DNA from: a plasmid
Strand: one strand, 5' to 3'
Assembly (NCBI RefSeq): GCF_056746865.1
Contig: NZ_JBWKMP010000007.1
Length of the DNA stretch: 12,766 bases
Position 1 is the stretch's first letter, and each line of letters starts with the position of its first letter. Positions 400 to 12,766 of the stretch are shown here, in pieces. Under the pieces are notes generated by a model. It searched no databases, had not been told where the DNA came from, and saw only the letters and a program-made list of their open reading frames with translations. Both the position numbers and the translations under genes were made by a program.

Positions 400-520
400 C
401 AATCCGCACCGATGCCGCATGACTAAGCCAGTATACACTCCGCTATCGCTACGTGACTGGGTCAGGGCTGCGCCCCGACACCCGCTAAAACCTGCTGACG
501 CGCCCTGACGGGCTTGTCGG
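400..520 (-). promoter_or_regulatory. oriT: bom / oriT (basis of mobility) with candidate nic motif CTGG/CTTA on the minus strand near 424-431
   Basis: Sequence tatacactccgctatcgctacgtgactgggtca...gccccgacacccgc matches the pBR322/ColE1 bom region from memory. The reverse complement of 424-431 (taagccag) is CTGGCTTA, the nic motif I recall for ColE1-type oriT. Lies between ori and rom, as in ColE1. Confidence 0.55.
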
Positions 521-573: not shown

Positions 574-765
574 TCAGAGGTTTTCACCGTCATCCCCGAA
601 ACGTGCGAGGCAGCTGCGGTAAAGCTCATCGGCGTGGTCGTGAAGCGATTCACAGATATCTGCCTGTTCATCCGCGTCCAGTTCGTTGAGTTTCTCCAGC
701 AGCGTTAATGTCTGGCCTCTGATGAAGCGGGCCATGTTAAGGGCGGTTTTTTCCTGTTTAGTCAC
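574..765 (-). CDS. rom: Rom/Rop, RNA I-RNA II interaction modulator (63 aa)
   Basis: Translation VTKQEKTALNMARFIRGQTLTLLEKLNELDADEQADICESLHDHADELYRSCLARFGDDGENL is near-identical to Rop as I recall it. GTG start at 765 with GGAGG 7 nt upstream on the minus strand. Confidence 0.9.
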   Translation of the reverse strand: MTKQEKTALNMARFIRGQTLTLLEKLNELDADEQADICESLHDHADELYRSCLARFGDDGENL

Positions 766-796: not shown

Positions 797-1153
797 ATGG
801 GGGTAATGATACCGATGAAACGCGAGAGGATGCTCACGATACGGGTTACTGATGATGAACATGCCCGGTTACTGGAACGCTGTGAGGGTAAACAACTGGC
901 GGTATGGATGCGGCGGGTCTGCCTGGGGGAGCCGGTTGCCCGTTCCGGGAAGCTGCCGACACTGGCACCGCCGTTACTGCGTCAGCTGGCCGCCATCGGG
1001 AATAACCTGAATCAGACCGCGAGGAAGGTGAACAGCGGGCAGTGGTCTTCCGGTGATCGGGTTCAGGTGGTGGCCGCACTGATGGCCATCGGGGATGAGC
1101 TGCGCCGGCTGCGTCTGGCCGTCAGGGAACAGGGGGCGCGGGATGATAGTTAA
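797..1153 (+). CDS. mbeC: Mobilisation accessory protein MbeC (MobC-like relaxosome component)
   Basis: 118-aa ORF immediately upstream of and overlapping the relaxase gene, in the ColE1 mbeC position. Start codon uncertain (ATG at 797, 806 or 815); purine-rich stretch aagggggga upstream. Confidence 0.75.
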   Translation: MGVMIPMKRERMLTIRVTDDEHARLLERCEGKQLAVWMRRVCLGEPVARSGKLPTLAPPLLRQLAAIGNNLNQTARKVNSGQWSSGDRVQVVAALMAIGDELRRLRLAVREQGARDDS

Positions 1154-2717
1154 ATTTCATGCCAGGGGAAAAGGTGGTGGCAGTGGTCCGGTTGATTACC
1201 TGCTGGGGAGGGAGCGTAACCGCGAAGGCGCAACGGTGCTTCAGGGTAATCCGGAAGAAGTCCGGGAACTCATCGATGCCACGCCATTTGCGAAGAAATA
1301 CACGTCAGGCGTTCTGTCGTTCGCGGAGAAGGAGTTGCCGCCGGGAGGACGTGAAAAAGTGATGGCGAGCTTTGAGCGCGTACTGATGCCAGGTCTCGAA
1401 AAGAATCAGTACAGCATCCTGTGGGTGGAGCACCAGGACAAGGGACGGCTTGAGCTGAATTTTGTCATTCCGAACATGGAGCTACAGACCGGAAAACGTC
1501 TCCAGCCGTACTACGACCGGGCAGACAGGCCGAGAATTGATGCCTGGCAGACGCTGGTGAATCACCATTACGGGCTGCATGACCCCAACGCCCCGGAGAA
1601 CCGCCGGATACTGACTCTCTCTGATAACCTGCCGGAAACGAAACAGGCGCTTGCTGAGAGCGTCACACGCGGGATAGACGCTCTTTATCATGTAGGGGAG
1701 ATAAAAGGCCGTCAGGATGTGATTCAGGCGCTCACAGAGGCGGGGCTTGAAGTGGTCAGGGTGACGCGAAGCAGCATCAGCATTGCAGACCCGAACGGCG
1801 GGAAGAATATCAGGCTGAAAGGAGCGTTTTATGAGCAATCTTTTACAGACGGGCGCGGAGTTCGAGAAAAAGCTGAAAGAGAGAGCCGAATCTACAGAGA
1901 AAGTGCTGAACAACGAGTTCAGGAGGCTCGGCGAATCTGTAAGCGAGGTTGTGACATCAAACGAGACGAAAATCAGAGACGCTATAGCCCTGTTCACAGC
2001 CTCGACAGAGGAATCGCTGGAGAAACACCGGGAAGGGGTGAAAGAGGCGATGAGGCAGCACAGGAAGGACGTGTTAAAGCTGGCAGGGAATACGGGCATG
2101 ATGTTACTGGGGATAGTCTTTCTCCTGTTTACCGCGAGTGGCGGGACGCTCTGGTATCTTGGCGGGAGGATACAGGCGAACCTGGAAGATATCAGGAAGC
2201 AGGAAGAGACATTGCAGAAACTGAACGCGAAGACATGGGGCGTGGAGTTCGTGCAGGACGGGAACAGGAAATTTCTGGTCCTTCCGTACGGGAAATCAGC
2301 AGAGGTGATTCCCTTTCAGGGGAAAGAGTGGGTACATCTGAAGGAGTGACACAGAGTGACAGAGCTGGAAACACATTTGCTGAACGCCTTAGAGCAGCTG
2401 CAACAGGACTATATGCAGCGGCTGAACGAATGGGAGAGCGCCTTCGTGGAATTGCAGAAGATGTTTTCGCTTACGCAACGGGACAACGCGATGCTGAACG
2501 AGCGGGTCATGCAGTTGAGTCAGCAGGTGCAGCACTTGAGCGAGCAGACAGAACACTTGAGCGAGCAGACAGAACACTTGAGCCAGTTATACAGCGAGAG
2601 CAGGAGATAAGGGACGAACTACTGATACAGGAACGTGAACATGAGCTATTCCTAGAGCGTGAGCGCCATCTGGAAATACAGGAACGGACACTGGATGGCC
2701 CGTCGCTGGGATGGTAA
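1143..2717 (+). CDS. mbeA: ColE1-type relaxase MbeA (MobA, HEN/MOB-P family)
   Basis: 524-aa ORF starting MIVKFHARGKGGGSGPVDYLLG with internal ATG at 1143, matching ColE1 MbeA from memory. Contains WVEHQDKGRLELNFV region. Overlaps mbeC 3' end by 11 nt. Confidence 0.9.
   Translation: MIVKFHARGKGGGSGPVDYLLGRERNREGATVLQGNPEEVRELIDATPFAKKYTSGVLSFAEKELPPGGREKVMASFERVLMPGLEKNQYSILWVEHQDKGRLELNFVIPNMELQTGKRLQPYYDRADRPRIDAWQTLVNHHYGLHDPNAPENRRILTLSDNLPETKQALAESVTRGIDALYHVGEIKGRQDVIQALTEAGLEVVRVTRSSISIADPNGGKNIRLKGAFYEQSFTDGRGVREKAERESRIYRESAEQRVQEARRICKRGCDIKRDENQRRYSPVHSLDRGIAGETPGRGERGDEAAQEGRVKAGREYGHDVTGDSLSPVYREWRDALVSWREDTGEPGRYQEAGRDIAETEREDMGRGVRAGREQEISGPSVREISRGDSLSGERVGTSEGVTQSDRAGNTFAERLRAAATGLYAAAERMGERLRGIAEDVFAYATGQRDAERAGHAVESAGAALERADRTLERADRTLEPVIQREQEIRDELLIQEREHELFLERERHLEIQERTLDGPSLGW
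1831..2349 (+). CDS. mbeB: Mobilisation protein MbeB, encoded in the +1 frame inside mbeA
   Basis: 172-aa ORF fully nested in mbeA in another frame, with a hydrophobic segment (MMLLGIVFLLFTASGGTLWYL). Same size and position as ColE1 MbeB as I recall it. Confidence 0.7.
   Translation: MSNLLQTGAEFEKKLKERAESTEKVLNNEFRRLGESVSEVVTSNETKIRDAIALFTASTEESLEKHREGVKEAMRQHRKDVLKLAGNTGMMLLGIVFLLFTASGGTLWYLGGRIQANLEDIRKQEETLQKLNAKTWGVEFVQDGNRKFLVLPYGKSAEVIPFQGKEWVHLKE
2356..2610 (+). CDS. mbeD: Mobilisation protein MbeD (about 9 kDa), nested in the 3' part of mbeA; GTG start
   Basis: 84-codon ORF beginning with GTG at 2356 directly after the mbeB stop (2347-2349). Coiled-coil-like sequence. Position and size match ColE1 mbeD from memory. 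Confidence 0.55.
   Translation: MTELETHLLNALEQLQQDYMQRLNEWESAFVELQKMFSLTQRDNAMLNERVMQLSQQVQHLSEQTEHLSEQTEHLSQLYSESRR
2533..2583. repeat. Perfect 21-bp tandem duplication (cacttgagcgagcagacagaa x2, plus 9-bp partial third copy) inside overlapping mbeA/mbeD
   Basis: Direct reading: units at 2533-2553 and 2554-2574, partial at 2575-2583. In frame in both genes (ERADRTL x2 in MbeA, EQTEHLS x2 in MbeD). Confidence 0.9.
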
Positions 2718-2825
2718 CCAAAGACAGGCTAAAGTGTTGTCAGCGCGTTTCCGGTGCATTTTTTTGGATAATGGTTGGTTCAGGGCACTAGGAACTAGCT
2801 TCAGTCAGGCCTTGCTGAAAACACA

Positions 2826-2961
2826 GGAACGCGTTAAAACGCATACGGACGCGTTTCTGGCGCTCAAAAACCATGGGGTTAGTGTGGGTAGTGTGTATAG
2901 CAACAGGAGCCTGGAACGCGTTCCGCTTCTTCTGTAATCGACGCCAGAATGCGTTTAATGC
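2826..2961. promoter_or_regulatory. Cluster of dyad-symmetric motifs (GGAACGCGTT x2 including perfect palindrome GGAACGCGTTCC; inverted pair gacgcgtttctggcgc / gacgccagaatgcgttt)
   Basis: Direct reading: ggaacgcgtt at 2826-2835 and 2913-2922; gacgcgtttctggcgc at 2848-2863 with inverted partner cgccagaatgcg at 2942-2953. Function unknown; may be protein-binding sites. Confidence 0.3.
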
Positions 2962-3100
2962 TTCTTCTGATGGTATCAGAGAGGAGCTGCTTGAGTTATT
3001 CCTGTTGGCCACAGAGCGTAATTATCTCCTTTTCAGATCCACACGGGGATACGTCAGAATCGGAACTGAGCAAGGATTACTGAAAGATACTGTTTGCCAG

Positions 3101-3125
3101 AAAAAAAATCCTCATACATGATGAG
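3101..3125 (-). terminator. Hairpin followed by T8 on the minus strand (candidate intrinsic terminator for minus-strand transcription leaving the AT-rich island)
   Basis: Plus strand aaaaaaaatcctcatacatgatgaggat: 8-bp stem atcctcat/atgaggat, 5-nt loop. The A8 run on plus becomes a U-tract after the stem on the minus strand. Confidence 0.45.
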
Positions 3126-3420
3126 GATAAAGTCTTAAAGGTCCATTCTATGGAGTGTCGGATTGAAAAATTTCTCCGGATGATATCCTTCACAGTTTAA
3201 ATGTGATTTCAACCATAAGTTTTTTATGGATTTTGTTAAATAAAAAAGAATTGAGTCGTGTTTCTGATATGTCTGAATATAATAAGTGAACAGTTATAAA
3301 ATAATTGTTTTATATTTATTGTGAGTTTGATGTTATGTTCTGCATAAATAACTGTAGTTTAGAATATTATTCTTTTATATTTATAGCTGTGAGATGATAA
3401 ATTATAAGTGTTCTTTGTGC

Positions 3421-3448
3421 TATAAAGAACCCCCCGTATAAGGGGGGG
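3421..3448 (-). terminator. C6/G7 hairpin (ccccccgtataaggggggg) with U-rich tail on the minus strand
   Basis: Stem 3430-3435 / 3442-3448. Minus-strand reading gives the stem followed by ttcttta. Confidence 0.35.
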
Positions 3449-3564
3449 TAAAAGATGGGTTTACTTCTTTTTAGTCCATGCCCTGGTGAGCTACATGAAG
3501 CTCGACACTACAGTAAAGATTTGCAGTTTTTTTGAACTTTACGCAAGCAATTTATTTACATTGT

Positions 3565-3593
3565 AAAGAAAACCCCCTCAATTCCGGAGGGGG
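3565..3593 (-). terminator. Hairpin ccccctc-aattccg-gaggggg with U-tract on the minus strand
   Basis: Stem 3573-3579 / 3587-3593. The plus-strand A-run 3566-3572 becomes ttttctt 3' of the stem on the minus strand. Confidence 0.4.
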
Positions 3594-3898
3594 AGTGTAG
3601 GGAAGTGCCTGATTTATTTTATGTACGCGCAAAAATGAGATAGCTTTTATTAGATATCATCAGCCCTGTCTGCATCAGTCAGCTCCTTACAGCGTCAGGA
3701 GTACTGATGAAGGGGGGGAACGTTCCTGCGTTTTTGCAAAGGCAATCCGGCTAGAGGCTTTACTACGCAGAAACATTCCGGACAACTTTTTACCCCAGTG
3801 TAACTTGTAGATCAACCAGATTTTGTTGCAGTAAAAATACAGTGGTTTCGAATTTGTAACATTTGTCACAAAAATAACATCAATATGTTGGTTTTCTG

Positions 3899-3928
3899 TT
3901 GATAAATGGTTTGGTCGCTGATTATGAT
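3899..3928 (+). promoter_or_regulatory. Sigma70-like promoter candidate (TTGATA, 18-bp spacer, TATGAT)
   Basis: -35 ttgata at 3899-3904; -10 tatgat at 3923-3928. Followed by a leader hairpin gtactcc/ggagtac (3935-3952) that would sequester the AGGAG at 3944-3948. Confidence 0.3.
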
Positions 3929-3992
3929 TTCCTTGTACTCCACAGGAGTACAGTCATGTGCATACTAAAATCCGTGTTTTCGATAAAATTAA

Positions 3993-4020
3993 GGCCGTGA
4001 TACAGAATCACGGCTTTTTT
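3993..4020 (+). terminator. Rho-independent terminator (ggccgtga-tacagaa-tcacggc + T6)
   Basis: 7-8-bp GC-rich stem 3993-4000 / 4008-4014, T-run 4015-4020. Confidence 0.6.
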
Positions 4021-4056
4021 CTTGCCTGAAAGGATCATTTACGCTAGAAGAATTAT

Positions 4057-4119
4057 GAGCGCGTCTCTGGTGTTTGTTGCAGGGATAATATCTAATATGG
4101 GGCACCGGAAACGCGCTCT
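4057..4119. repeat. Dyad module A: 16-bp imperfect inverted repeat (gagcgcgtctctggtg ... caccggaaacgcgctc) around a loop of about 31 nt
   Basis: Direct reading. Paralogous to module B; the arms differ from B by a compensatory change (gcgcg/cgcgc in A versus gcgtg/cacgc in B). Confidence 0.5.
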
Positions 4120-4197
4120 CCCTTCGTATACAGAATGCCCATTAATTTCTTCTTCCTGATTTTCCAGACATATATTCTTGTGTAAATTAAAAAACAG

Positions 4198-4272
4198 AGC
4201 GTGTTTCTGGTGTGAATTTGTTGGCTACAATGTGCATTGTTGTTCTGTGTTCCAGAAACACGCTTCTTTTTT
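4198..4272. repeat. Dyad module B: 13-bp perfect inverted repeat (agcgtgtttctgg ... ccagaaacacgct), loop about 38 nt, A-run upstream and T6 downstream (bidirectional terminator-like)
   Basis: Direct reading: arms 4199-4211 and 4252-4264, T-run 4267-4272, A-run 4190-4195. Confidence 0.5.
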
Positions 4273-4395
4273 GAGATGCACATCGGTCTTATACAAAGAG
4301 GGATGGTTGTATCTGTGTCAGAGTTTTGTTATTTTTTGTATGCTCAGTTATTGATGGTTAATAATATCAAGAAAATCAGCAAGTTCCTTACACTA

Positions 4396-4421
4396 CCCCT
4401 CTTCAGTAGAGGGGTTTTTTT
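4396..4421 (+). terminator. Rho-independent terminator (cccctct-tcagt-agagggg + T7)
   Basis: Stem 4396-4402 / 4408-4414, T-run 4415-4421. Confidence 0.65.
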
Positions 4422-4490
4422 ATCTGGTACGCCGTAAAACCCGGTCCTTCAGGGCGTAGAGGATGTCAAAAATTTCTTCGAAAGGTAATA

Positions 4491-4721
4491 CCCGGTATCC
4501 CGCTCATGCTGGCGAACCCAGACACGCAGGGTCTCTGGCGTACAGCCAATCTTTGGAGCAATGGAACAAATTGCCGCCCATTGTGAGTCATATTCGCCCT
4601 GGCTTTCCAGAACCATACGAACTGCCCGTTGACGGACTTCGGGGGAAAAACGAGTATTTTTAGTCATCCTGTTTACATCTTTCTCAGGAAGTTTAGTCTC
4701 CAGGATTTCCGGGGCGGTTCA
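4491..4721 (-). mobile_element. 5' remnant of an IS3-family element (IS629/IS1203-like): terminal inverted repeat plus the first 59 codons of orfA, truncated
   Basis: Minus-strand ORF 4449..4667 begins [59 protein letters not shown], which matches IS629-type OrfA from memory, then diverges into an unrelated 13-aa tail. The reverse complement of 4690-4721 is the IS-end-like tgaaccgccccggaaatcctggagactaaac. Confidence 0.7.
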
Positions 4722-4949
4722 GTCCGGCAGAGATAAATTGCCACGGGAAGTTAGAGAAAAGTGCGGGAAAATGTCTTAAGAATGATTCTGGAAGAACGAA
4801 AAGTAAGAAGCGCAAAGGCTATGAGGGCAAAAGAGTATCGTGCCGCAGCGAATACTTTTACCTGGCAGCCTGTACAGCGCAGGTGAATAGACATTCCCCT
4901 GACTCATCCTGCTCCCCTTGGCGGCGAAGGGGATTAATCCCTATCCTGT

Positions 4950-5200
4950 AACTTCTATTTTGTGGAATCGAAAACAGCTGAAAATTGTGAAAAAAAACCG
5001 TTTCAGTCGTCTCAGTAAGGAAATTCGCTTGTGATTCACCTGGATGCATAGGTATGCATAAGGTTAAAATTTATCAGGCGCGATCGCGGTAGTTTTTCGG
5101 GGGGGTTGTTGCGATTTTTACCTGTCTGCTGCCGTGATTGCGCTGAATGCATTTCAGCGGTGCGTACAATTAAGGGATTATGGTAAATCCACTTACTGTC
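4950..5200. other. cer: cer-like multimer resolution site with XerC/XerD core ggtgcgtacaa-ttaaggga-ttatggtaaat at 5159-5188
   Basis: Core is identical to the ColE1 cer crossover site as I recall it. Upstream accessory region (gcataaggttaaaatttatcaggcgcgatcgcgg ...) also resembles cer, including paired tgcata half-sites near 5042-5060 (possible ArgR box). Confidence 0.7.
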
Positions 5201-5612
5201 TTCCCTCGTAGCCATCGAGATAAACCGCAGAAATCGTCTCAGCCAGCAGCCTGGATTTTTTCGGGGTAAGGTCTTTGCTGCGGTAATCAGTACCCGCAAA
5301 TTGAGTTGTGCCCCGGAGTGAGTTTAAAAATTCCTGGCTGTGAAACTGCTGAATGCGTTGCTGCACATCACTCCGTGATTTTCCTGTCGCTTTATCCTTT
5401 GCTCCCATATCCCAGAACTGCCGGAAAAAAGGCACCATCATTCGTGTTGTGTCGGCCTTCTGGGTGGAAAAGTTAGGATCAAAACCATCGTCTGATGCAT
5501 AAACGTAATGCCGGGTATGTTGTTCCACACTGCCCTTTGGCGTGCAGGCTGTCAGGACCGTTGCCGCTGTCAGCAGGGCGATAAGATACAGTGTGCCGCC
5601 GGAACGTCTCAT
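5193..5612 (-). CDS. Putative lipoprotein of unknown function (139 aa; signal peptide with lipobox LTAC)
   Basis: N-terminus MRRSGGTLYLIALLTAATVLTAC has a basic n-region, hydrophobic core and L-T-A-C lipobox. Mature protein is hydrophilic. I do not recognise the family. Confidence 0.55.
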   Translation of the reverse strand: MRRSGGTLYLIALLTAATVLTACTPKGSVEQHTRHYVYASDDGFDPNFSTQKADTTRMMVPFFRQFWDMGAKDKATGKSRSDVQQRIQQFHSQEFLNSLRGTTQFAGTDYRSKDLTPKKSRLLAETISAVYLDGYEGRQ

Positions 5613-5695: not shown

Positions 5696-6133
5696 TCACC
5701 GGCTGAACAGTCTGGCCCAGAATCCCCGTTTTTTTTCCTGCTCCAGTGCCTGCCTGAGCTGCTCTATCTCTTTATGTAGCTGTTCCCGTTCGGCTTCCTG
5801 GCGCCGGCGTTCCGTAGCCTGTGCCTGTTTGTCCTCAAGCATCAGTGTCAGGCATTGTCTCAGCTCATTCAGCTCCCGGAGAATGCGTTCTGTCTGCTGA
5901 TCATGTGGATTTTCTGCCTGTCCCGCACTGTGCCTTTCTGGTGTCTCATCCTGCTTTAATTCGCCGTATGCCCGGATCAGTTCACTGGTTTCAAACTCCC
6001 GCCGTCCGTCCTGGCCTGTACGATAACTGACAAGGCCTGCGCGCATATCACGGTAAAACTGTGAACGCGATCTGCCTGTCATTTTCAGTGCGTTCTGGAG
6101 TGTGTGCCATGCCATGAAGTGACAGTGTCCCAT
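5696..6133 (-). CDS. Putative small DNA-binding protein with N-terminal helix-turn-helix-like segment and C-terminal coiled coil (start codon ambiguous)
   Basis: AWHTLQNALKMTGRSRSQFYRDMRAGLVSY looks like an HTH. C-terminus RRRQEAEREQLHKEIEQLRQALEQEKKR is a charged heptad-like helix. No strong RBS at any of the three candidate ATGs. Confidence 0.5.
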   Translation of the reverse strand: MGHCHFMAWHTLQNALKMTGRSRSQFYRDMRAGLVSYRTGQDGRREFETSELIRAYGELKQDETPERHSAGQAENPHDQQTERILRELNELRQCLTLMLEDKQAQATERRRQEAEREQLHKEIEQLRQALEQEKKRGFWARLFSR

Positions 6134-6392: not shown

Positions 6393-7456
6393 ATGGAAAC
6401 AGCTGTAGCGTACTATAAAGATGGTGTTCCTTATGATGATAAGGGGCAGGTAATCATTACTCTTTTGAATGGTAATCCAGACGGGAGTGGCTCTGGCGGC
6501 GGTGGTGGAACTGGAGGTAGCAAAAGTGAAAGTTCTGCAGCCATTCATGCCACAGCTAAATGGTCTACTGCTCAATTGAAGAAAACGCAGGCAGAACAGG
6601 CTGCCCGGGCAAAAGCTGCCGCAGAAGCACAGGCTAAAGCAAAAGCAAACCGGGATGCGCTGACTCAACATCTGAAGGATATTGTGAATGAGGCGCTTCG
6701 TCATAATTCCACTCATCCGGAGGTTATTGACCTGGCTCATGCCAATAATGCAGCGATGCAGGCAGAAGCAGAGCGGTTGCGCCTTGCAAAAGCAGAAGAA
6801 AAAGCCCGTAAAGAAGCGGAAGCTGCGGAAAAGGCTTTTCAGGAGGCAGAACAACGACGCAAAGAGATAGAGAAGGAGCAGGCTGAAACAGAACGCCAGT
6901 TGAAACTGGCTGAAGCTGAAGAGAAACGGCTGGCAGCATTGAATGAAGAGGCCCGGGCAGTGGAGGTGGCACAAAAAAATCTTGCTGCTGCACAATCTGA
7001 GCTGGCGAAAGTGGATGAAGAGATTAAGACTCTCAATACCCGTTTAAGCTCCAGTATTCATGCCCGTGATGCAGAAATGAATACGCTGTCCGGAAAACGA
7101 AATGAGCTGGCTCAGGCATCTGCTAAATATAAGGAACTTGATGAACTGGTCAAAAAATTGTCACCAAGAGCTAATGATCCGCTTCAGAGTCGTCCTTTTT
7201 TCTATGCCACCAGTCGACGGACGGGAGCCGGTAAGATTATGGAGGAAAACAAAAACAGGTAACAGCATCAGAAACGCGTATTAACCAACTTAATGCTGAG
7301 ATAAATGGAATTCAGGGGGCTATGTCTCAGGCTAATAATAATCGTAATACAGCTGTTTTACGTGTTCATGAATCTGAAGAAAATTTGAAAACAGCGCAGA
7401 CTAATCTCCTGAACTCGCAGATTAAGGATGCTGTGGATGCAACAGTTAGCTTTTAT
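6393..7456 (+). pseudogene. cea: Colicin E1-type gene, 5' part (translocation and receptor-binding domains), with a 1-nt frameshift in an A-run (7246-7249) and truncated by the IS21-family insertion at 7456/7457
   Basis: METAVAYYKDGVPYDDKGQVIITLLNGNPDGSGSGGGGG... matches colicin E1 from memory. Frame 0 stops at 7260-7262; the colicin-like reading continues in the -1 frame (VTASETRIN...DAVDATVSFY) to 7456. Confidence 0.85.
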
Positions 7457-7658
7457 TGCAAAATGGCATCTGAATCGATCGCAGTTTGGCATTCGAATCG
7501 ATCATGATTTGGCATCCATCTCCGATCACAGTTTGGCATCACAATCGATCACGATTTGGCATGCTTCCGATCATTGATTGGCATCCTGCCAGTCACTCCG
7601 GGAATTAACTCTTTTCACCACAGTCTCCATTGCCGTGTTTAAACCAGTGGAGACGTCA

Positions 7659-9224
7659 ATGTCCAGAAAGAGAAAATCCAGGAGCACTATGGAAACCTGT
7701 TTTAAGATTCTTCAGCTCAAGTTCGACAAGAAGCTGACTAACCGTTGTATCGGACTGACGTTACACATCAGCGCCTCAACCGTTTTTGAGGTTCTTGCCC
7801 GCTTCAAAGCCTCTTCTCTGTCATGGCCATTACCTGCTGATATATCCCATGACACGCTGGAGAAACTCATTTTTCCGCCCAAAGACACCTTTGCATCAGA
7901 GCTTGTAATGCCTGACATGTTGTACCTCGATACGGAAATGAGAAAACCAGGTGTGACGCGGCAACTGTTGTGGATGGAATACAAGGCACAGGCGGGTAAC
8001 AAAGCGATGGGATACTCGCACTTCTGCCGTTGCTACCGGGAGTGGAAAAAAACGCGACGTCTCTCCATGCGCCAGGAGCATCGTGCCGGCGAAAAGCTTT
8101 TTATCGACTTCTGTGGTCCTACGGTTCCTGTTATTAATCCGGACACCGGTGAGATACGCCGCGTGGCAATCTTCGTGGCCGTAATGGGGGCGTCCAACTA
8201 TACCTACGTTGAAGCGTGCGAAGGTCAGGACATGATGTCATGGTTAAATGCCCACAGCCGTTGCCTGACCTTCCTGGGCGGCGTACCGAAGCTGCTCATC
8301 CCCGATAACCTCAGAAGCGCAGTGAAAAAGGCCGATCGATATGAGCCTGTCATCAACGACAGTTATCAGGCACTGGCTGAGCACTATGGCACGGTTATCA
8401 TCCCGGCCCGACCACGCAAACCTAAAGATAAACCAAAAGCAGAAAACGGCGTCCTCATCGTCGAACGATGGCTTCTTGCCCGCATCCGTAATGAAACCTT
8501 CCACACGCTCAGGGCGCTGAATGCGCGCCTTAGGGAGTTACTGACAGACATGAATAACCGGCCAATGAAGGGGTACGGCAATCAAACCCGTGCAGAACGC
8601 TTCCGCATACTGGATGCGCCAGCACTCTCTCCGCTGCCTCTGGCACCTTATGAATACACGGAATACAAAGCTGTGAAGGTTGGCCCTGACTACCACGTTG
8701 AATATGCCCGTCACTGGTACTCCGTTCCACACGAACTGGTCGGTCAGCGTCTGTCACTGAAGGCGGGGCAGTCGGTGGTACAGCTCTGGCACAAGGGGCA
8801 GTGTGTGGCGCAACATCCGCGCAGCACACATGAATATAAACACACAACCAATCCGCTTCACATGCCAGAGCGCCACCGGCAGCACGGGACATGGACACCG
8901 GAACGCCTGATCGAGCAGGGAAAACGTACGGGCCCGTCCACAGGCCGGGTGGTTGAATCCATGCTGAAGGCAAAACCCCATCCGGAACTGGCTTATCGTG
9001 CAGTTCTGGGGCTGCTGGCACTTCAGAAAAAATACGGCCCGGAACGGCTGGAAAAGGCCTGTTACGTTGCCCTGCACTATAACGCCCCTGACAGACGCTT
9101 TATCGACAATCTGCTGCGTCACCATCGGGAGAACCTGGAGCTTCCATTATCCCGCCAGGGCGAACAACATCCGGCATATGCTTCAGAGCATGAAAACCTG
9201 CGTGGTCCGGGCTACTACCACTGA
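7659..9224 (+). CDS. istA: IS21-family transposase IstA (521 aa)
   Basis: Long ORF with a DDE-type integrase core and the IstA-typical layout; followed 16 nt later by istB. ATG at 7659 preceded by ggag. Confidence 0.85.
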   Translation: MSRKRKSRSTMETCFKILQLKFDKKLTNRCIGLTLHISASTVFEVLARFKASSLSWPLPADISHDTLEKLIFPPKDTFASELVMPDMLYLDTEMRKPGVTRQLLWMEYKAQAGNKAMGYSHFCRCYREWKKTRRLSMRQEHRAGEKLFIDFCGPTVPVINPDTGEIRRVAIFVAVMGASNYTYVEACEGQDMMSWLNAHSRCLTFLGGVPKLLIPDNLRSAVKKADRYEPVINDSYQALAEHYGTVIIPARPRKPKDKPKAENGVLIVERWLLARIRNETFHTLRALNARLRELLTDMNNRPMKGYGNQTRAERFRILDAPALSPLPLAPYEYTEYKAVKVGPDYHVEYARHWYSVPHELVGQRLSLKAGQSVVQLWHKGQCVAQHPRSTHEYKHTTNPLHMPERHRQHGTWTPERLIEQGKRTGPSTGRVVESMLKAKPHPELAYRAVLGLLALQKKYGPERLEKACYVALHYNAPDRRFIDNLLRHHRENLELPLSRQGEQHPAYASEHENLRGPGYYH

Positions 9225-9240
9225 CAGAAGGAACAACAGT

Positions 9241-9996
9241 ATGAGTGATAACCTGTTAAACAAACTGACCCAACTGAAACTCCCGGCGATGGCCGGGAGC
9301 CTGATACGGCAGCGGGAAACGCCTCAGACCTACGACGAACTGTCGTTCGAGGAAAGGCTGACGCTGCTGGTTGATGACGAGCTTCTGAGCAGGGAAAACA
9401 GCCGTGTGGCACGGTTGAGAAAAAATGCCGGCCTGAAATACCAGGCAACACCGGAAGGGCTGCGCTATCCGGCCTCAAGAGGTCTGCGGGCTGAACAGAT
9501 GAGAGAACTGCTGAACGGCCACTACATAACCCACAGGAAAAACCTGCTGATAACCGGTCCGACAGGATGTGGCAAGAGCTGGATAGCCAATGCGCTGGGC
9601 GAACAGGCATGTCGACAGAAACACAGCGTCCGGTACTGTAGAACCGGGCGATTACTGGAACAACTGGCTCAGGGACGTGTTGATGGCAGCTGGCTGAAAT
9701 ATCTGAAACAGTTGCAAAAAATACAGGTTCTAATCCTGGACGATCTGGGGCTGGAACAGTTAAGTAACGCCCAGTGTAATGACCTTCTGGAGCTCATAGA
9801 GGATCGTTACGGACAAAGCAGCACGATAGTGGTAAGCCAGTTCCCGGTAGATAAATGGCATGGTCTGATGGAGAACCCAACAACAGCAGATGCCATCCTG
9901 GACAGACTGGTACATAACTCACACCGGGTGGTCCTTCAGGGAGAGTCACTGAGGAAAAATCCCCCGGTAGTGGAAAGCAGCGAAAAAACGCGTTAA
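9241..9996 (+). CDS. istB: IS21-family helper ATPase IstB (251 aa)
   Basis: Walker A GPTGCGKS and Walker B VLILDDLG motifs. RBS gaagga upstream of the ATG at 9241. Confidence 0.9.
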   Translation: MSDNLLNKLTQLKLPAMAGSLIRQRETPQTYDELSFEERLTLLVDDELLSRENSRVARLRKNAGLKYQATPEGLRYPASRGLRAEQMRELLNGHYITHRKNLLITGPTGCGKSWIANALGEQACRQKHSVRYCRTGRLLEQLAQGRVDGSWLKYLKQLQKIQVLILDDLGLEQLSNAQCNDLLELIEDRYGQSSTIVVSQFPVDKWHGLMENPTTADAILDRLVHNSHRVVLQGESLRKNPPVVESSEKTR

Positions 9997-10095
9997 AAAG
10001 CGGTAGAAAAAGTTAAGTTCCCGGTTGATCGAATGGATGCGAATCGCTGATCGGACTTCGATGCCAATCCGTGATCGAATAGAGCGGAATACGCA

Positions 10096-10593
10096 CTTTT
10101 ATCAAACGCTATCTGAAAAATATGGTGAAAAATATTCAAAAATGGCACAGGAACTTGCTGATAAGTCTAAAGGTAAGAAAATCAGCAATGTGAATGAAGC
10201 TCTAGCTGCTTTTGAAAAATACAAGGATGTTTTAAATAAGAAATTCAGCAAAGCAGACCGTGATGCGATTTTCAATGCACTGGAATCGGTTAAGTATGAA
10301 GACTGGGCTAAGCATTTAGATCAGTTTGCTAAGTACTTGAAGATTACGGGACATGTTTCTTTTGGATATGATGTGGTATCTGATATCCTAAAAATTAAGG
10401 ATACAGGTGACTGGAAGCCACTATTTCTTACATTAGAGAAGAAAACTGTAGATGCTGGAGTTAGTTATATTGTTTTAGTGTGCTTGCTGGAACTACATTA
10501 GGTATCTGGGGGATTGCTATTGTTACAGGCATTCTATGTGCCTTTATTGACAAGAATAAACTTAATACTATAAATGATGTGTTGGGTATTTAA
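10096..10593 (+). pseudogene. cea: Colicin E1-type gene, 3' part (pore-forming domain), carrying a roughly 10-nt deletion/frameshift near 10473 in the hydrophobic helical hairpin
   Basis: [28 protein letters not shown]...[20 protein letters not shown] matches the colicin E1 channel domain from memory. Frame stops at 10499-10501; the remaining C-terminus ([35 protein letters not shown]) is in another frame ending at 10591-10593. Confidence 0.8.
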
Positions 10594-10978: not shown

Positions 10979-11040
10979 ATGAGGAAAAGATTTTTTGTGG
11001 GAATATTAGCTATAAACCTCCTTGTTGGATGTCAGGCTAA
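10979..11040 (+). pseudogene. kil: Colicin lysis (release) lipoprotein gene, 5' part (MRKRFFVGILAINLLVGCQA...), interrupted by IS5 after codon 20
   Basis: RBS taagga; signal peptide with lipobox LVGC as in ColE1 Kil. Reading frame enters the IS5 end at 11041. Confidence 0.8.
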
Positions 11041-12235
<1,195 letters not shown>

Positions 12236-12315
12236 CTAACTATATACGTGATGTTCAGGGAGGGACTGTGGCTCCATCATCTTCTTCTAAACTGACGGGG
12301 ATCTCTGTTCAGTAG
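12236..12315 (+). pseudogene. kil: Colicin lysis lipoprotein gene, 3' part (...[25 protein letters not shown])
   Basis: Continues the kil frame across the CTAA duplication; stop at 12313-12315. Confidence 0.8.
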
Positions 12316-12370: not shown

Positions 12371-12766
12371 GTAAACGAAAAAACCGCCTGGGGAGGCGGT
12401 TTGATCGAAGGTTAAGTCAGTTGGGGAACTGCTTAACCGAGGTAACTGGCTTCAGCAGAGCGCAGATACCAAATACTGTCCTTCCAGTGTAGCCGTAGTC
12501 GGGCCACTACTTCAAGAACTCTGTTGCACCATTTGCGCCATCATCGCTCTGCTAACCAAGTTACCAACGGCTGCTGCCAGTGGCGCTTTGTCGTGTCTTA
12601 CCGGGTTGGACTCAAGACGATAGTTACCGGATAAGGCGCAGCGGTCGGGCTGAACGGGGGGTTCGTGCACACAGCCCAGCTTGGAGCGAACGACCTACAC
12701 CGAACTGAGATACCAACAGCGTGAGCTATGAGAAAGCGCCACGCTTCCCGAAGGGAGAAAGGCGGA
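12371..12766 (+). ncRNA. RNAII: RNA II replication primer precursor, 5' portion (continues into 1-about 160 if circular)
   Basis: Homology by eye to the ColE1 RNA II 5' region, with stem-loops such as ccgcctggggaggcgg (12384-12399). Downstream sequence is near-identical to pMB1 (ggtaactggcttcagcagagcgcagataccaaatactgtcctt...). Confidence 0.75.
12372..12479 (-). ncRNA. RNAI: RNA I antisense copy-number control RNA (about 108 nt)
   Basis: Complement of the first roughly 108 nt of RNA II. The minus strand begins acagtatttggtatctgcgctctgctgaagccagttacc as in pMB1 RNA I, and ends in a stem-loop plus U-tract (complement of aaaaaaccgcctggggaggcgg). Confidence 0.7.

What the first reader, a model, noticed from the sequence alone, without database searches (positions are those of the whole stretch)
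4057..4272. Two paralogous long dyad modules with a compensatory base change
Module A (4057-4119) and module B (4198-4264) each have 13-16-bp inverted arms around a 31-38-nt loop containing tttgttg. Where the arms differ (gcgcg versus gcgtg), the partner arm changes correspondingly (cgcgc versus cacgc), preserving pairing. That is the signature of selection on a hairpin or on a dimeric protein-binding site. Module B is flanked by an A-run and a T-run like a bidirectional terminator.
Basis: seen in the sequence. Interest (0 to 1): 0.6.

Follow-up and report, generated by a model that had tools for sequence, protein, structure and literature searches.

The report
Hairpin-repeat family in ColE1-type plasmids
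The two long inverted repeats are real, and they belong to a previously unnamed family of hairpin-forming repeats that fills the non-coding stretch between the transfer genes and the cer dimer-resolution site of ColE1-type plasmids; what the family does is still unproven.

Summary
Module A (4057-4118) and module B (4197-4265, or 4190-4272 with its A and T runs) are strong dyads and significant paralogues.

They are not an isolated pair. The window is a whole ColE1-type colicin plasmid carrying two more copies: 2741-2800, now decayed, and 2847-2923. The same GAGCGCGTTTCYGG arms recur in about 400 ColE1-type plasmids directly after the mbeA stop codon, in Yersinia pestis pPCP1, and as arrays of up to five in gut-metagenome plasmids. 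All genuine copies lie between oriT/mob and cer.

Across the family, pairing is kept by changes on both sides at 6-7 of 16 stem positions. Module A's arms are invariant between two lineages that are otherwise about 80% identical. Models built from the family also find the Rcd hairpin inside cer, but only weakly.

My best reading (about 0.4) is that these are single-strand hairpins, probably RNA in RNAII/mob-sense transcripts, that bound transcription ahead of cer. Only B looks like a terminator. The adjacent "HTH protein" is a truncated IS3 transposase and is irrelevant. No Rfam family, protein family, phage or E. coli chromosomal match was found.

The parts
4057..4118 (+). Module A. A 16-bp stem (4057-4072 with 4103-4118) and a 30-nt loop containing TTTGTTGCAGGGATAAT.
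   Evidence: - Inverted repeat I4; RNA fold -31.3 kcal/mol, z -4.9.
- Covariance model R1 scores it 67.2 bits on the plus strand and 28.9 bits on the minus strand.
- Its closest relative is the post-mbeA dyad of ordinary ColE1-type plasmids (z 13.4).
- Only two substitutions, both in the loop, separate it from the IncK2/Z homologue.
4190..4272 (+). Module B. The core stem is 4197-4210 with 4252-4265 and the loop is 41 nt. It is flanked by AAAAAA (4190-4195) and TTTTTT (4267-4272), which makes it resemble a bidirectional intrinsic terminator.
   Evidence: - Inverted repeat I1; fold -29.2 kcal/mol, z -4.2; R1 score 56.3 bits.
- In the IncK2/Z homologue a 14-nt deletion and a 1-nt deletion weaken it to z -0.48.
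2847..2923 (+). Module C. The arms are 2847-2862 (GGACGCGTTTCTGGCG) and 2908-2923 (AGCCTGGAACGCGTTC). The left arm sits exactly on the junction between the common ColE1 backbone and the 2-kb segment shared with IncK2/Z plasmids.
   Evidence: - R1 score 49.9 bits.
- Backbone homology to about 220 plasmids ends near 2860.
- IncK homology starts at 2847.
2741..2800 (+). Module 0. This dyad lies 24 nt after the mbeA stop codon (2715-2717). Its right arm (2785-2800) is broken in this plasmid by two CG-to-TA changes. It is intact in ordinary ColE1-type plasmids.
   Evidence: - Alignments A2 and A3.
- The window copy folds at z -0.87. The intact copy in L004 folds at -34.6 kcal/mol, z -5.1.
- R1 score 33.4 bits.
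5077..5144 (+). The cer-internal hairpin, which is the Rcd RNA region. It lies downstream of a TAAAAT -10 hexamer (5065-5070) and upstream of the XerCD core (5159-5188). It has the same build (16-bp stem, 36-nt loop containing GTTGTTGC) and is a possible distant relative of the modules.
   Evidence: - The core is an exact match to the ColE1 cer core; fold -38.7 kcal/mol, z -4.0.
- R1, built without any cer sequence, finds the cer hairpins of six plasmids at 12-27 bits (E 1.6e-5 to 0.25). The window copy scores 12.1 bits.
- The reciprocal model R2 gives E 0.04-9. nhmmer finds nothing.
3991..4023 (+). Context only: canonical intrinsic terminator T1, 34 nt upstream of module A. It closes a small-RNA-like unit (3935-4023).
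   Evidence: - 11-bp stem, 5-nt loop and T tract.
- A C-G to T-A compensatory change and a loop inversion separate it from the IncK2/Z copy.

Best explanation
**Shown.** Modules A and B are two copies of a hairpin-forming dyad repeat. The arm consensus is GAGCGCGTTTCYGG(YG), and the loops are variable (25-45 nt between 16-nt arms). The family lives in the non-coding spacer between the oriT/mob module and the cer dimer-resolution site of ColE1-type plasmids. The archetype sits 24 nt after the mbeA stop codon. The copies in this window arose by duplication and by recombination with a second ColE1-like plasmid.

**Inferred.** What is selected is the fold of one strand, not a double-stranded protein site. 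The most likely molecule is RNA made by rightward transcription (RNAII read-through, the mob operon, or small local promoters), which runs toward cer. The stable stems would then mark and stabilise transcript ends and limit transcription entering cer. At cer, control of Pcer/Rcd and assembly of the ArgR-PepA-XerCD complex are reported to be sensitive to incoming transcription. Only B has gained A and U tracts and should act as a true bidirectional intrinsic terminator. A is a conserved stem-loop without a U tract.
For: **Family and location.**
- Copies occur in the window, in ordinary ColE1-type plasmids, in pPCP1, and as arrays in metagenomic plasmids.
- Every genuine copy lies in a ColE1-like replicon or its remnant, between oriT/mob and cer.
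- No copy was found in E. coli chromosomes or in phages.

**Position after stop codons.**
- The dyad lies 24 nt after the mbeA stop.
- In L076 the first dyad overlaps the stop codon of a Rep_1 gene.
- An unrelated 12-bp dyad follows mbeA in a Kosakonia plasmid.

**Selection for pairing.** pPCP1 copy a (TCCGGC/GCCGGA) and its same-loop relative in L020 (TCTGGC/GCCAGA) differ by a compensated pair. L076 copy 4 replaces TCYGG/CCRGA with GAGGG/CCCTC.

**Purifying selection on A.** There are no changes in 32 arm bases against a background of about 15-20% divergence.

**Strand bias.** Non-Watson-Crick stem pairs are mostly G.T on the RNAII/mob/Rcd-sense strand. My tally of well-registered stems is about 10-12 against 2. 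The script's ungapped count is 20 against 8.

**Orientation.** All window copies and the Rcd hairpin face the same way.

**Terminator features and context.** B has A and T tracts. The surrounding 2 kb carries 10 terminator-like sites against 2.0 expected.

**Literature.** Read-through transcription into cer is argued to matter for Pcer control (PMC2831885).
Against: - Most family members, including A, lack a U tract and have loops of 25-45 nt, so they are not canonical intrinsic terminators.
- ColE1 proper has no such dyad between mbeA and cer, so the element is dispensable.
- The window's own post-mbeA copy is broken, and B is degraded in the IncK2/Z lineage.
- The lower 9-10 bp of the stem (GCGCGTTTC/GAAACGCGC) is conserved in sequence in 17-19 of 19 copies. 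A purely structural role does not require this.
- The G.T strand bias could come from strand-biased C-to-T mutation rather than from selection.
- No transcript data were available.
Confidence: 0.4

Rival explanations
1. The modules are single-stranded DNA hairpins that act as priming or primosome-assembly signals (ssi/SSO-like). They would work on the displaced strand during unidirectional ColE1 replication, rolling-circle replication or conjugative transfer.
For: - The stem sequence is conserved while the loops are free to vary.
- In L076, five dyads lie between the stop codon of a Rep_1 rolling-circle initiator gene and an oriT-type inverted repeat. In L020, four dyads start about 10 nt from an oriT-type repeat. 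That position is just behind a nick site, which is where single-strand origins typically sit (my knowledge of rolling-circle plasmids).
- Redundant arrays and individually dispensable copies fit this role.
- The G.T bias marks a single strand.
Against: - The favoured strand is the RNAII-sense strand. It is not the transferred strand, because the nic motif lies on the minus strand at 424-438.
- ColE1 replicons already carry primosome assembly sites near ori (my knowledge; an ssi site is listed as a typical element in PMC2831885).
- Orientation judged from the loops is mixed in L020.
- L076 may be a cointegrate contig.
Confidence: 0.2
2. The modules are decaying duplicates of the Pcer-Rcd hairpin segment of cer, or of the post-mob hairpin, with no present function. 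Their complementarity is kept by template-switch correction of quasi-palindromes rather than by selection.
For: - They resemble the cer hairpin in build and weakly in sequence.
- An A-rich, -10-like element lies upstream of many copies. It is TAAAAT before the post-mbeA dyad, as in Pcer.
- Broken copies exist.
- ColE1 proper lacks them.
- The 2-kb segment is a recombination product.
Against: - A's arms are invariant while its flanks diverge.
- Arrays of up to five well-folded copies with unalignable loops persist in several plasmid lineages.
- Template switching would not lower the substitution rate in the arms.
Confidence: 0.15
3. A and B are extra Rcd-like small regulatory RNAs, each made from its own weak promoter. 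They would act on a protein or RNA target as Rcd acts on tryptophanase.
For: - They have the same stem and loop build as Rcd, and both carry a TTTGTTG-type loop motif.
- Reciprocal covariance-model hits connect the two groups.
- They are co-oriented with Rcd.
- B has TAAATT 10 nt upstream and a terminator-like 3' end.
- Neighbouring units look like small-RNA genes.
Against: - No convincing promoter precedes A. The scan lists none, and the best candidate -10 is altered in IncK2/Z.
- Direct sequence similarity between A or B and cer is not significant.
- The Rcd loop is conserved with covarying arms (A7), whereas these modules show the opposite pattern.
Confidence: 0.1
4. The arms are double-stranded DNA binding sites for a dimeric plasmid or host protein. 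This includes the first reader's version involving the adjacent HTH protein.
For: The lower stem is conserved in sequence in nearly all copies. The arms always occur as inverted pairs.
Against: - Half-site spacing varies from 25 to 45 bp.
- Compensated changes keep pairing rather than sequence.
- G.T is favoured over A.C.
- Rop is the only protein annotated in all the annotated carriers I examined, pPCP1 included.
- The adjacent HTH open reading frame is a truncated IS3 OrfA, inserted at a different place in the sister lineage.
Confidence: 0.1
5. The modules are miniature inverted-repeat transposable elements, or fragments of a known dispersed repeat such as REP or ERIC.
For: They are 60-80 bp units with terminal inverted repeats, and there are many copies.
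Against: - There are no flanking target-site duplications.
- No place was found on an E. coli chromosome among 5,426 complete E. coli genomes.
- Copies are confined to one plasmid region.
- No Rfam match was found.
Confidence: 0.03

Closest known systems
The Rcd-encoding hairpin inside the ColE1 cer site (Pcer/Rcd; PMC4393325)
   Same: - It is on the same plasmid, in the same orientation, with the same build (a 16-bp GC-rich stem and a loop of about 35 nt containing GTTTGTTGC).
- The stem base is similar (GCGCGAT... against GCGCGTT...).
- A -10-like TAAAA element lies about 7 nt upstream in several copies.
- It is found by a model trained only on the modules.
   Different: - The modules lie outside cer, with no ArgR box or XerCD core beside them.
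- Similarity is marginal. nhmmer finds nothing, Smith-Waterman gives z 2-4 for modules 0 and 1, and A and B are not significant.
- In Rcd the loop is conserved and the arms covary. Here the arms are conserved and the loops vary.
Rho-independent (intrinsic) bidirectional terminators
   Same: B has a GC-containing stem flanked by an A run and a T run. The family copy in ordinary plasmids sits right after a stop codon.
   Different: The loops are 25-45 nt instead of 3-8. A and most other copies have no U tract. The terminator scan does not list any of them.
Single-strand initiation signals and single-strand origins of plasmids and phages (ssi, SSO, primosome assembly sites)
   Same: They are long imperfect hairpins in non-coding plasmid DNA. 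In some plasmids they lie next to a nick site or after a rolling-circle rep gene, in several redundant copies.
   Different: I made no sequence comparison with known ssi or SSO classes, and no activity was tested. The favoured strand is not the transferred strand.
Integron attC sites
   Same: They are imperfect inverted repeats with conserved ends and a variable centre. They sit between modules, and one copy lies on a mosaic junction.
   Different: There are no GTTRRRY/RYYYAAC core sites in the arms. No integrase or cassette array is present among the genes annotated or detected on this plasmid.

Membership tests
Intrinsic (Rho-independent) terminator | A GC-rich stem immediately followed by a U/T tract | tested here: met
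   Met for B only. The stem 4197-4210 with 4252-4265 is followed by CTTCTTTTTTG, with a mirrored A run upstream. Not met for A, which is followed by TCTCCCTTCG.
Intrinsic (Rho-independent) terminator | A short loop (about 3-8 nt) that lets the hairpin fold quickly | tested here: not met
   The loops are 30 nt (A) and 41 nt (B). Neither module is listed by the terminator scan.
cer Pcer/Rcd hairpin | Location inside a cer-type site, between the ArgR box and the XerC/XerD core | tested here: not met
   The only XerCD core in the window is at 5159-5188. A and B lie 0.9-1.1 kb upstream of it.
cer Pcer/Rcd hairpin | Detectable sequence and structure homology to Rcd hairpins | tested here: inconclusive
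   - R1 against cer hairpins: 12-27 bits, E 1.6e-5 to 0.25.
- R2 against the modules: E 0.039 (module 0) to 1.1 (A) and 9.3 (B).
- nhmmer: no hit.
- Smith-Waterman for A or B against cer: not significant.
cer Pcer/Rcd hairpin | Its own promoter (Pcer-like -35 and -10) placing the hairpin at the 5' end of the RNA | tested here: inconclusive
   - No plus-strand promoter is listed before A or B.
- TAAATT lies 10 nt before B.
- TAAAAT lies 7 nt before the post-mbeA copy, but with a poor -35.
MITE / dispersed repeat (REP, ERIC) | Target-site duplications and copies dispersed over chromosomes | tested here: not met
   No direct repeats flank the modules. There are 0 chromosomal places in 5,426 E. 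coli genomes. All genuine copies lie in one region of ColE1-like plasmids.
Integron attC | R''/R' core sites (RYYYAAC ... GTTRRRY) and a neighbouring integrase or cassette array | tested here: not met
   The arms read GAGCGCGTTTCYGG ... CCRGAAACGCGCTC. No integrase is among the genes annotated or detected on the plasmid.
Single-strand initiation signal / SSO | Orientation-specific conversion of ssDNA to dsDNA | not testable with these tools
   Only the hairpin prediction and the context are available.
Single-strand initiation signal / SSO | Sequence motifs of known classes (for example the ssoA RSB/CS-6 motifs, or primosome-site consensus) | not tested
Rfam-described RNA families | A match to any of the 4,227 covariance models | tested here: not met
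   Only RNAI passes its gathering score. Nothing credible appears at E up to 5 over 2700-5000 or over the L076 array.

The most novel reading that the evidence does not exclude
The dyads are folded-hairpin recombination sites, analogous to attC sites. ColE1-type plasmids would swap or acquire the segments lying between mob/oriT and cer at these sites. That would explain three observations. One arm (2847-2862) sits exactly on the junction between the common backbone and the imported 2-kb segment. An 89-bp island containing one dyad is the only DNA shared by otherwise diverged backbones. The stem ends are conserved in sequence while the centres are free.
Probability: 0.05. Interest if true: 0.85.

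Novelty: new variant of a known kind. Interest (0 to 1): 0.45.

Why it matters
ColE1 is one of the most studied plasmids, and its relatives include cloning vectors and the Y. pestis virulence plasmid pPCP1. I found no description of a conserved hairpin-repeat family in them.

The family recurs in hundreds of these plasmids and shows evidence of selection for pairing. It also has a possible kinship with the Rcd checkpoint RNA.

If the repeats insulate cer, prime single-stranded DNA or mark recombination junctions, they would explain part of how these small plasmids stay stable and become mosaic. If they have no such role, this is a modest case of duplicated transcript-end hairpins.

Tried and rejected
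**Searches that found nothing**
- Rfam at gathering and E-value thresholds: only RNAI.
- Phage collection and E. coli chromosomes.
- MbeA scan of viral contigs.
- NCBIfam on eight small ORFs, including the 34-aa ORF that starts at A's left arm.
- Protein database search with the 45-aa ORF version.
- Literature search for the arm sequence: only unrelated papers. Literature searches on ColE1 inverted repeats and on Frpo-type ssDNA promoters gave nothing relevant.

**A as a protein-coding start.** I rejected this. The ORF is kept in IncK2/Z, but its C-terminal 13 codons carry 5 non-synonymous changes against 1 synonymous change.

**Sequence identities I considered and rejected**
- Similarity to the ColE1 oriT inverted repeat and nic region: none.
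- Extra XerCD cores next to the modules: none.
- IS-end or MITE identity: rejected because there are no target-site duplications and no chromosomal copies.
- pSC101 par and known IS inverted repeats: compared from memory only, with no resemblance.

**Weak or biased tests**
- nhmmer between the modules and cer found no hit.
- Loop-based orientation is inconsistent in the arrays.
- The ungapped G.T versus A.C count was confounded by mis-registered bulged copies, so I re-tallied by eye.
- About half of the metagenome pattern hits are GC-rich soil coding sequences matched by chance.
- The pattern search requires paired arms, so pattern-found copies are biased toward pairing.

Full report
**1. The observation**

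- Module A has 16-nt arms at 4057-4072 and 4103-4118, 88% complementary, around 30 nt.
- Module B has core arms at 4197-4210 and 4252-4265 around 41 nt. With its A run and T run it extends to 21-nt arms at 4190-4210 and 4252-4272.
- Both loops contain TTTGTTG, and the GCGCG/CGCGC versus GCGTG/CACGC difference is there.

Both modules fold far better than shuffled controls on either strand, with z between -4.2 and -4.9 on the plus strand. A and B are significantly alike (z 6.0). The arm motif occurs six times between 2741 and 4265 against 0.56 expected in the whole window.

**2. Where we are**

The window is a complete circular ColE1-type colicin plasmid. Its ends join, and it is 97-100% identical to the 8.9-kb plasmid pSMS35_8 apart from two insertions. 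The landmarks are:

| Feature | Coordinates |
|---|---|
| RNAI | 12375-12477 (-) |
| oriT nic motif | 424-438 (-) |
| rop | 574-765 (-) |
| MobC-family gene and mbeA | 797-2717 (+) |
| cer XerCD core | 5159-5188 |
| Exc2 lipoprotein gene | 5193-5612 (-) |

The finding lies in a mostly non-coding, AT-rich stretch (GC 29-44%) between mbeA and cer.

The "adjacent HTH protein" (4449-4667, minus strand) is the OrfA remnant of an IS3-family element. In the sister lineage the IS sits at a different position. It has nothing to do with the dyads.

**3. The pair is part of a family**

Window 2847-4394, together with 4722-4886, is 79% identical to an IS-flanked remnant on IncK2/Z conjugative plasmids. 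The common ColE1 backbone, shared with about 220 plasmids, ends near 2860. A further arm copy (2847-2862) therefore lies exactly on the junction.

That arm has a partner at 2908-2923; I call this pair module C. Another copy starts 24 nt after the mbeA stop (2741-2756); I call it module 0. In ordinary ColE1-type plasmids module 0 is an intact 17-bp-stem dyad (-34.6 kcal/mol, z -5.1). It is module A's closest relative (z 13.4), down to the loop motif GGGATAAT and the right arm GGGGCACCGG. In this window its right arm is broken by two CG-to-TA changes (z -0.87).

A second backbone dyad, module 1, lies about 150 bp upstream of the cer hairpin. It occurs in ordinary ColE1-type plasmids, in ColK-type plasmids and in pPCP1.

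A genome-collection scan for the dyad pattern found two further copies, 148 bp apart, in Yersinia pestis pPCP1-type contigs. The rest were chance hits.

A metagenome scan plus a covariance model built from the family (R1) found new loop types, all in ColE1-like replicons. Some plasmids carry arrays:
- Five dyads at a period of about 125-150 bp in L076. They run from the stop codon of a Rep_1 rolling-circle initiator gene to an oriT-type inverted repeat.
- Four dyads in L020, lying between an oriT-type repeat and cer.

ColE1 proper has none; there, mbeA is followed directly by cer. No copy occurs on an E. coli chromosome or in phage records. No Rfam family matches.

**4. What is conserved**

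| Alignment | Copies | Cells paired | Pairs changed on both sides | Shuffles reaching this | Slid controls paired |
|---|---|---|---|---|---|
| A6 | 12 | 86.5% | 6 of 16 | 0-3 of 500 | 29-52% |
| A8 (arms only) | 19 | 84.5% | 7 of 16 (16 cells) | 1-10 of 500 | not recorded |

Clear individual cases are:
- B itself (C-G to U-A).
- Module 1 (U-A to A-U).
- pPCP1 copy a against its same-loop relative in L020 (C-G against U-A).
- L076 copy 4, where TCYGG/CCRGA has become GAGGG/CCCTC.

The lower 9-10 bp of the stem (GCGCGTTTC/GAAACGCGC) is nevertheless almost invariant in sequence, in 17-19 of 19 copies. The loops cannot be aligned between module types.

Between the window and IncK2/Z, A has two substitutions, both in the loop, and none in its 32 arm bases. 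Its flanks are 80-90% identical. B has lost 14 nt and 1 nt in IncK2/Z and no longer folds well (z -0.48). A therefore looks constrained, and B looks dispensable in that remnant.

Non-Watson-Crick stem pairs are mostly G.T on the strand that matches RNAII, mob and Rcd transcription. My tally of well-registered stems is about 10-12 against 2, and the script's ungapped count is 20 against 8. This points to a single-stranded form of that strand. Strand-biased C-to-T mutation could, however, produce the same pattern.

Two caveats apply. Copies found by the pattern search are ascertained for paired arms. The shuffle controls do not correct for relatedness among the sequences.

**5. Link to cer and Rcd**

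cer contains a dyad of the same build. In the window its arms are 5077-5092 and 5129-5144, and the 36-nt loop contains GTTGTTGC (-38.7 kcal/mol, z -4.0). A TAAAAT hexamer precedes it. By my knowledge and by PMC4393325 and PMC2831885, this is the Pcer/Rcd small-RNA region.

The evidence for a relationship is consistent in direction but marginal:
- R1, built without any cer sequence, finds the cer hairpin of six plasmids full-length on the correct strand at 12-27 bits (E 1.6e-5 to 0.25).
- The reciprocal model built from seven cer hairpins ranks modules 0 and 1 as its best non-self hits (E 0.04-0.14). A scores E 1.1 and B scores E 9.3.
- Smith-Waterman with shuffles gives z 3.7-4.2 for module 1 against cer. 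A and B are not significant.
- nhmmer finds nothing.

I treat a common origin as possible but not shown. The evolutionary pattern also differs. In Rcd the loop is conserved and the arms covary, as in the Klebsiella copy. In the modules the reverse holds.

**6. Mechanism**

Shown: this is a duplicated, hairpin-forming repeat family confined to the oriT/mob-to-cer spacer, with pairing maintained.

Inferred: the fold of one strand is what matters. I favour RNA hairpins in rightward transcripts that end or stabilise transcripts and limit transcription entering cer (confidence about 0.4). The reasons are:
- Copies sit right after stop codons.
- All window copies are co-oriented with mbeA, RNAII and Rcd.
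- B has terminator tracts.
- The neighbourhood is dense in terminators (10 against 2.0 expected).
- Read-through into cer is argued to be harmful to Pcer control.

Against this reading, most copies lack a U tract and have long loops, ColE1 proper lacks them, and the conserved stem sequence is unexplained.

The main rival (about 0.2) is an ssDNA priming signal. It is suggested by the arrays next to nick sites and behind a rolling-circle rep gene. It is weakened because the favoured strand is not the transferred one. The other rivals are neutral relics homogenised by template switching (0.15), Rcd-like small RNAs (0.1), duplex protein-binding sites (0.1) and MITEs (0.03).

**7. Novelty and verdict**

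I found no description of this family in Rfam or in the searchable literature. It is best filed as a new variant of a known kind, namely plasmid intergenic hairpin repeats or transcript-end structures with a possible Rcd kinship.

Its interpretation is partly right: selection on a hairpin, and B being terminator-like, are supported. Interest is moderate (0.45).

Noticed in passing
window 3899-4023 (+): A well-formed small-RNA-like unit lies here.
- Promoter-like site TTGATA-18-TATGAT, matching 10 of 12 positions.
- A perfect hairpin (3933-3953) that buries an AGGAG ribosome-binding site.
- A 14-codon ORF (3957-4001, MCILKSVFSIKLRP) whose stop codon lies inside the stem of terminator T1 (3991-4017).

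Both hairpins are kept in the IncK2/Z homologue. T1 shows a C-G to T-A compensatory change and an inverted loop.
   Followed up: partly
window 3429-3593: Two minus-strand terminator-like hairpins (3449-3429 and 3593-3573) bracket a block that is about 95% conserved. The block holds a 26-codon plus-strand ORF (3455-3535, MGLLLFSPCPGELHEARHYSKDLQFF). Its four differences from IncK2/Z are two synonymous changes, one Gly-to-Val change and one stop-to-stop change. This may be a small protein with an antisense RNA.
   Followed up: partly
window 3091-3215: This block is 93% conserved and ends in a minus-strand terminator (3128-3108). Two minus-strand promoter-like sites lie upstream (3239-3212 and 3207-3180). 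It may be a minus-strand small RNA of about 70 nt.
   Followed up: no
window 4300-4423 (+): This stretch is nearly invariant between lineages (4306-4364) and ends in the canonical terminator 4395-4415. It may be another plus-strand small RNA. It has only sub-threshold Rfam hits (OmrA-B, Phe leader).
   Followed up: no
window 2785-2800: The right arm of the post-mbeA dyad is disrupted by two identical CG-to-TA dinucleotide changes (CCGG to CTAG and CGCG to CTAG). This is specific to the pSMS35_8 lineage.
   Followed up: partly
window 7456-10096 and 11040-12236: Two insertions relative to pSMS35_8. An IS21-family element (istA- and istB-like ORFs at 7578-9224 and 8998-9996) interrupts the colicin gene. 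An IS5-family element (transposase at 11073-12089) lies between the immunity region and ori.
   Followed up: partly
window 4449-4722 and 4722-4886: A truncated IS3-family fragment has been inserted into a segment that is homologous to an 81-aa hypothetical gene (WP_045148228) of the IncK2/Z plasmids. That gene is only a remnant here.
   Followed up: partly
L076 2874-3489; L020 3134-3728: Gut-metagenome plasmids carry tandem arrays of 4-5 dyads. The spacers between dyads share motifs (CTCAGA.GCGTTCTAACGTGATTTT ... T run ... GCGTTTTAAGCGCG). The arrays abut oriT-type inverted repeats. In L076 the array starts at the stop codon of a Rep_1 rolling-circle initiator gene.
   Followed up: partly
window 5696-6133 (-): A 145-aa ORF between Exc2 and the colicin gene gives a weak, sub-threshold NCBIfam hit to a plasmid replication DNA-binding protein family (rep_pAB02_ORF2, 38.5 bits against a cutoff of 85).
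   Followed up: no
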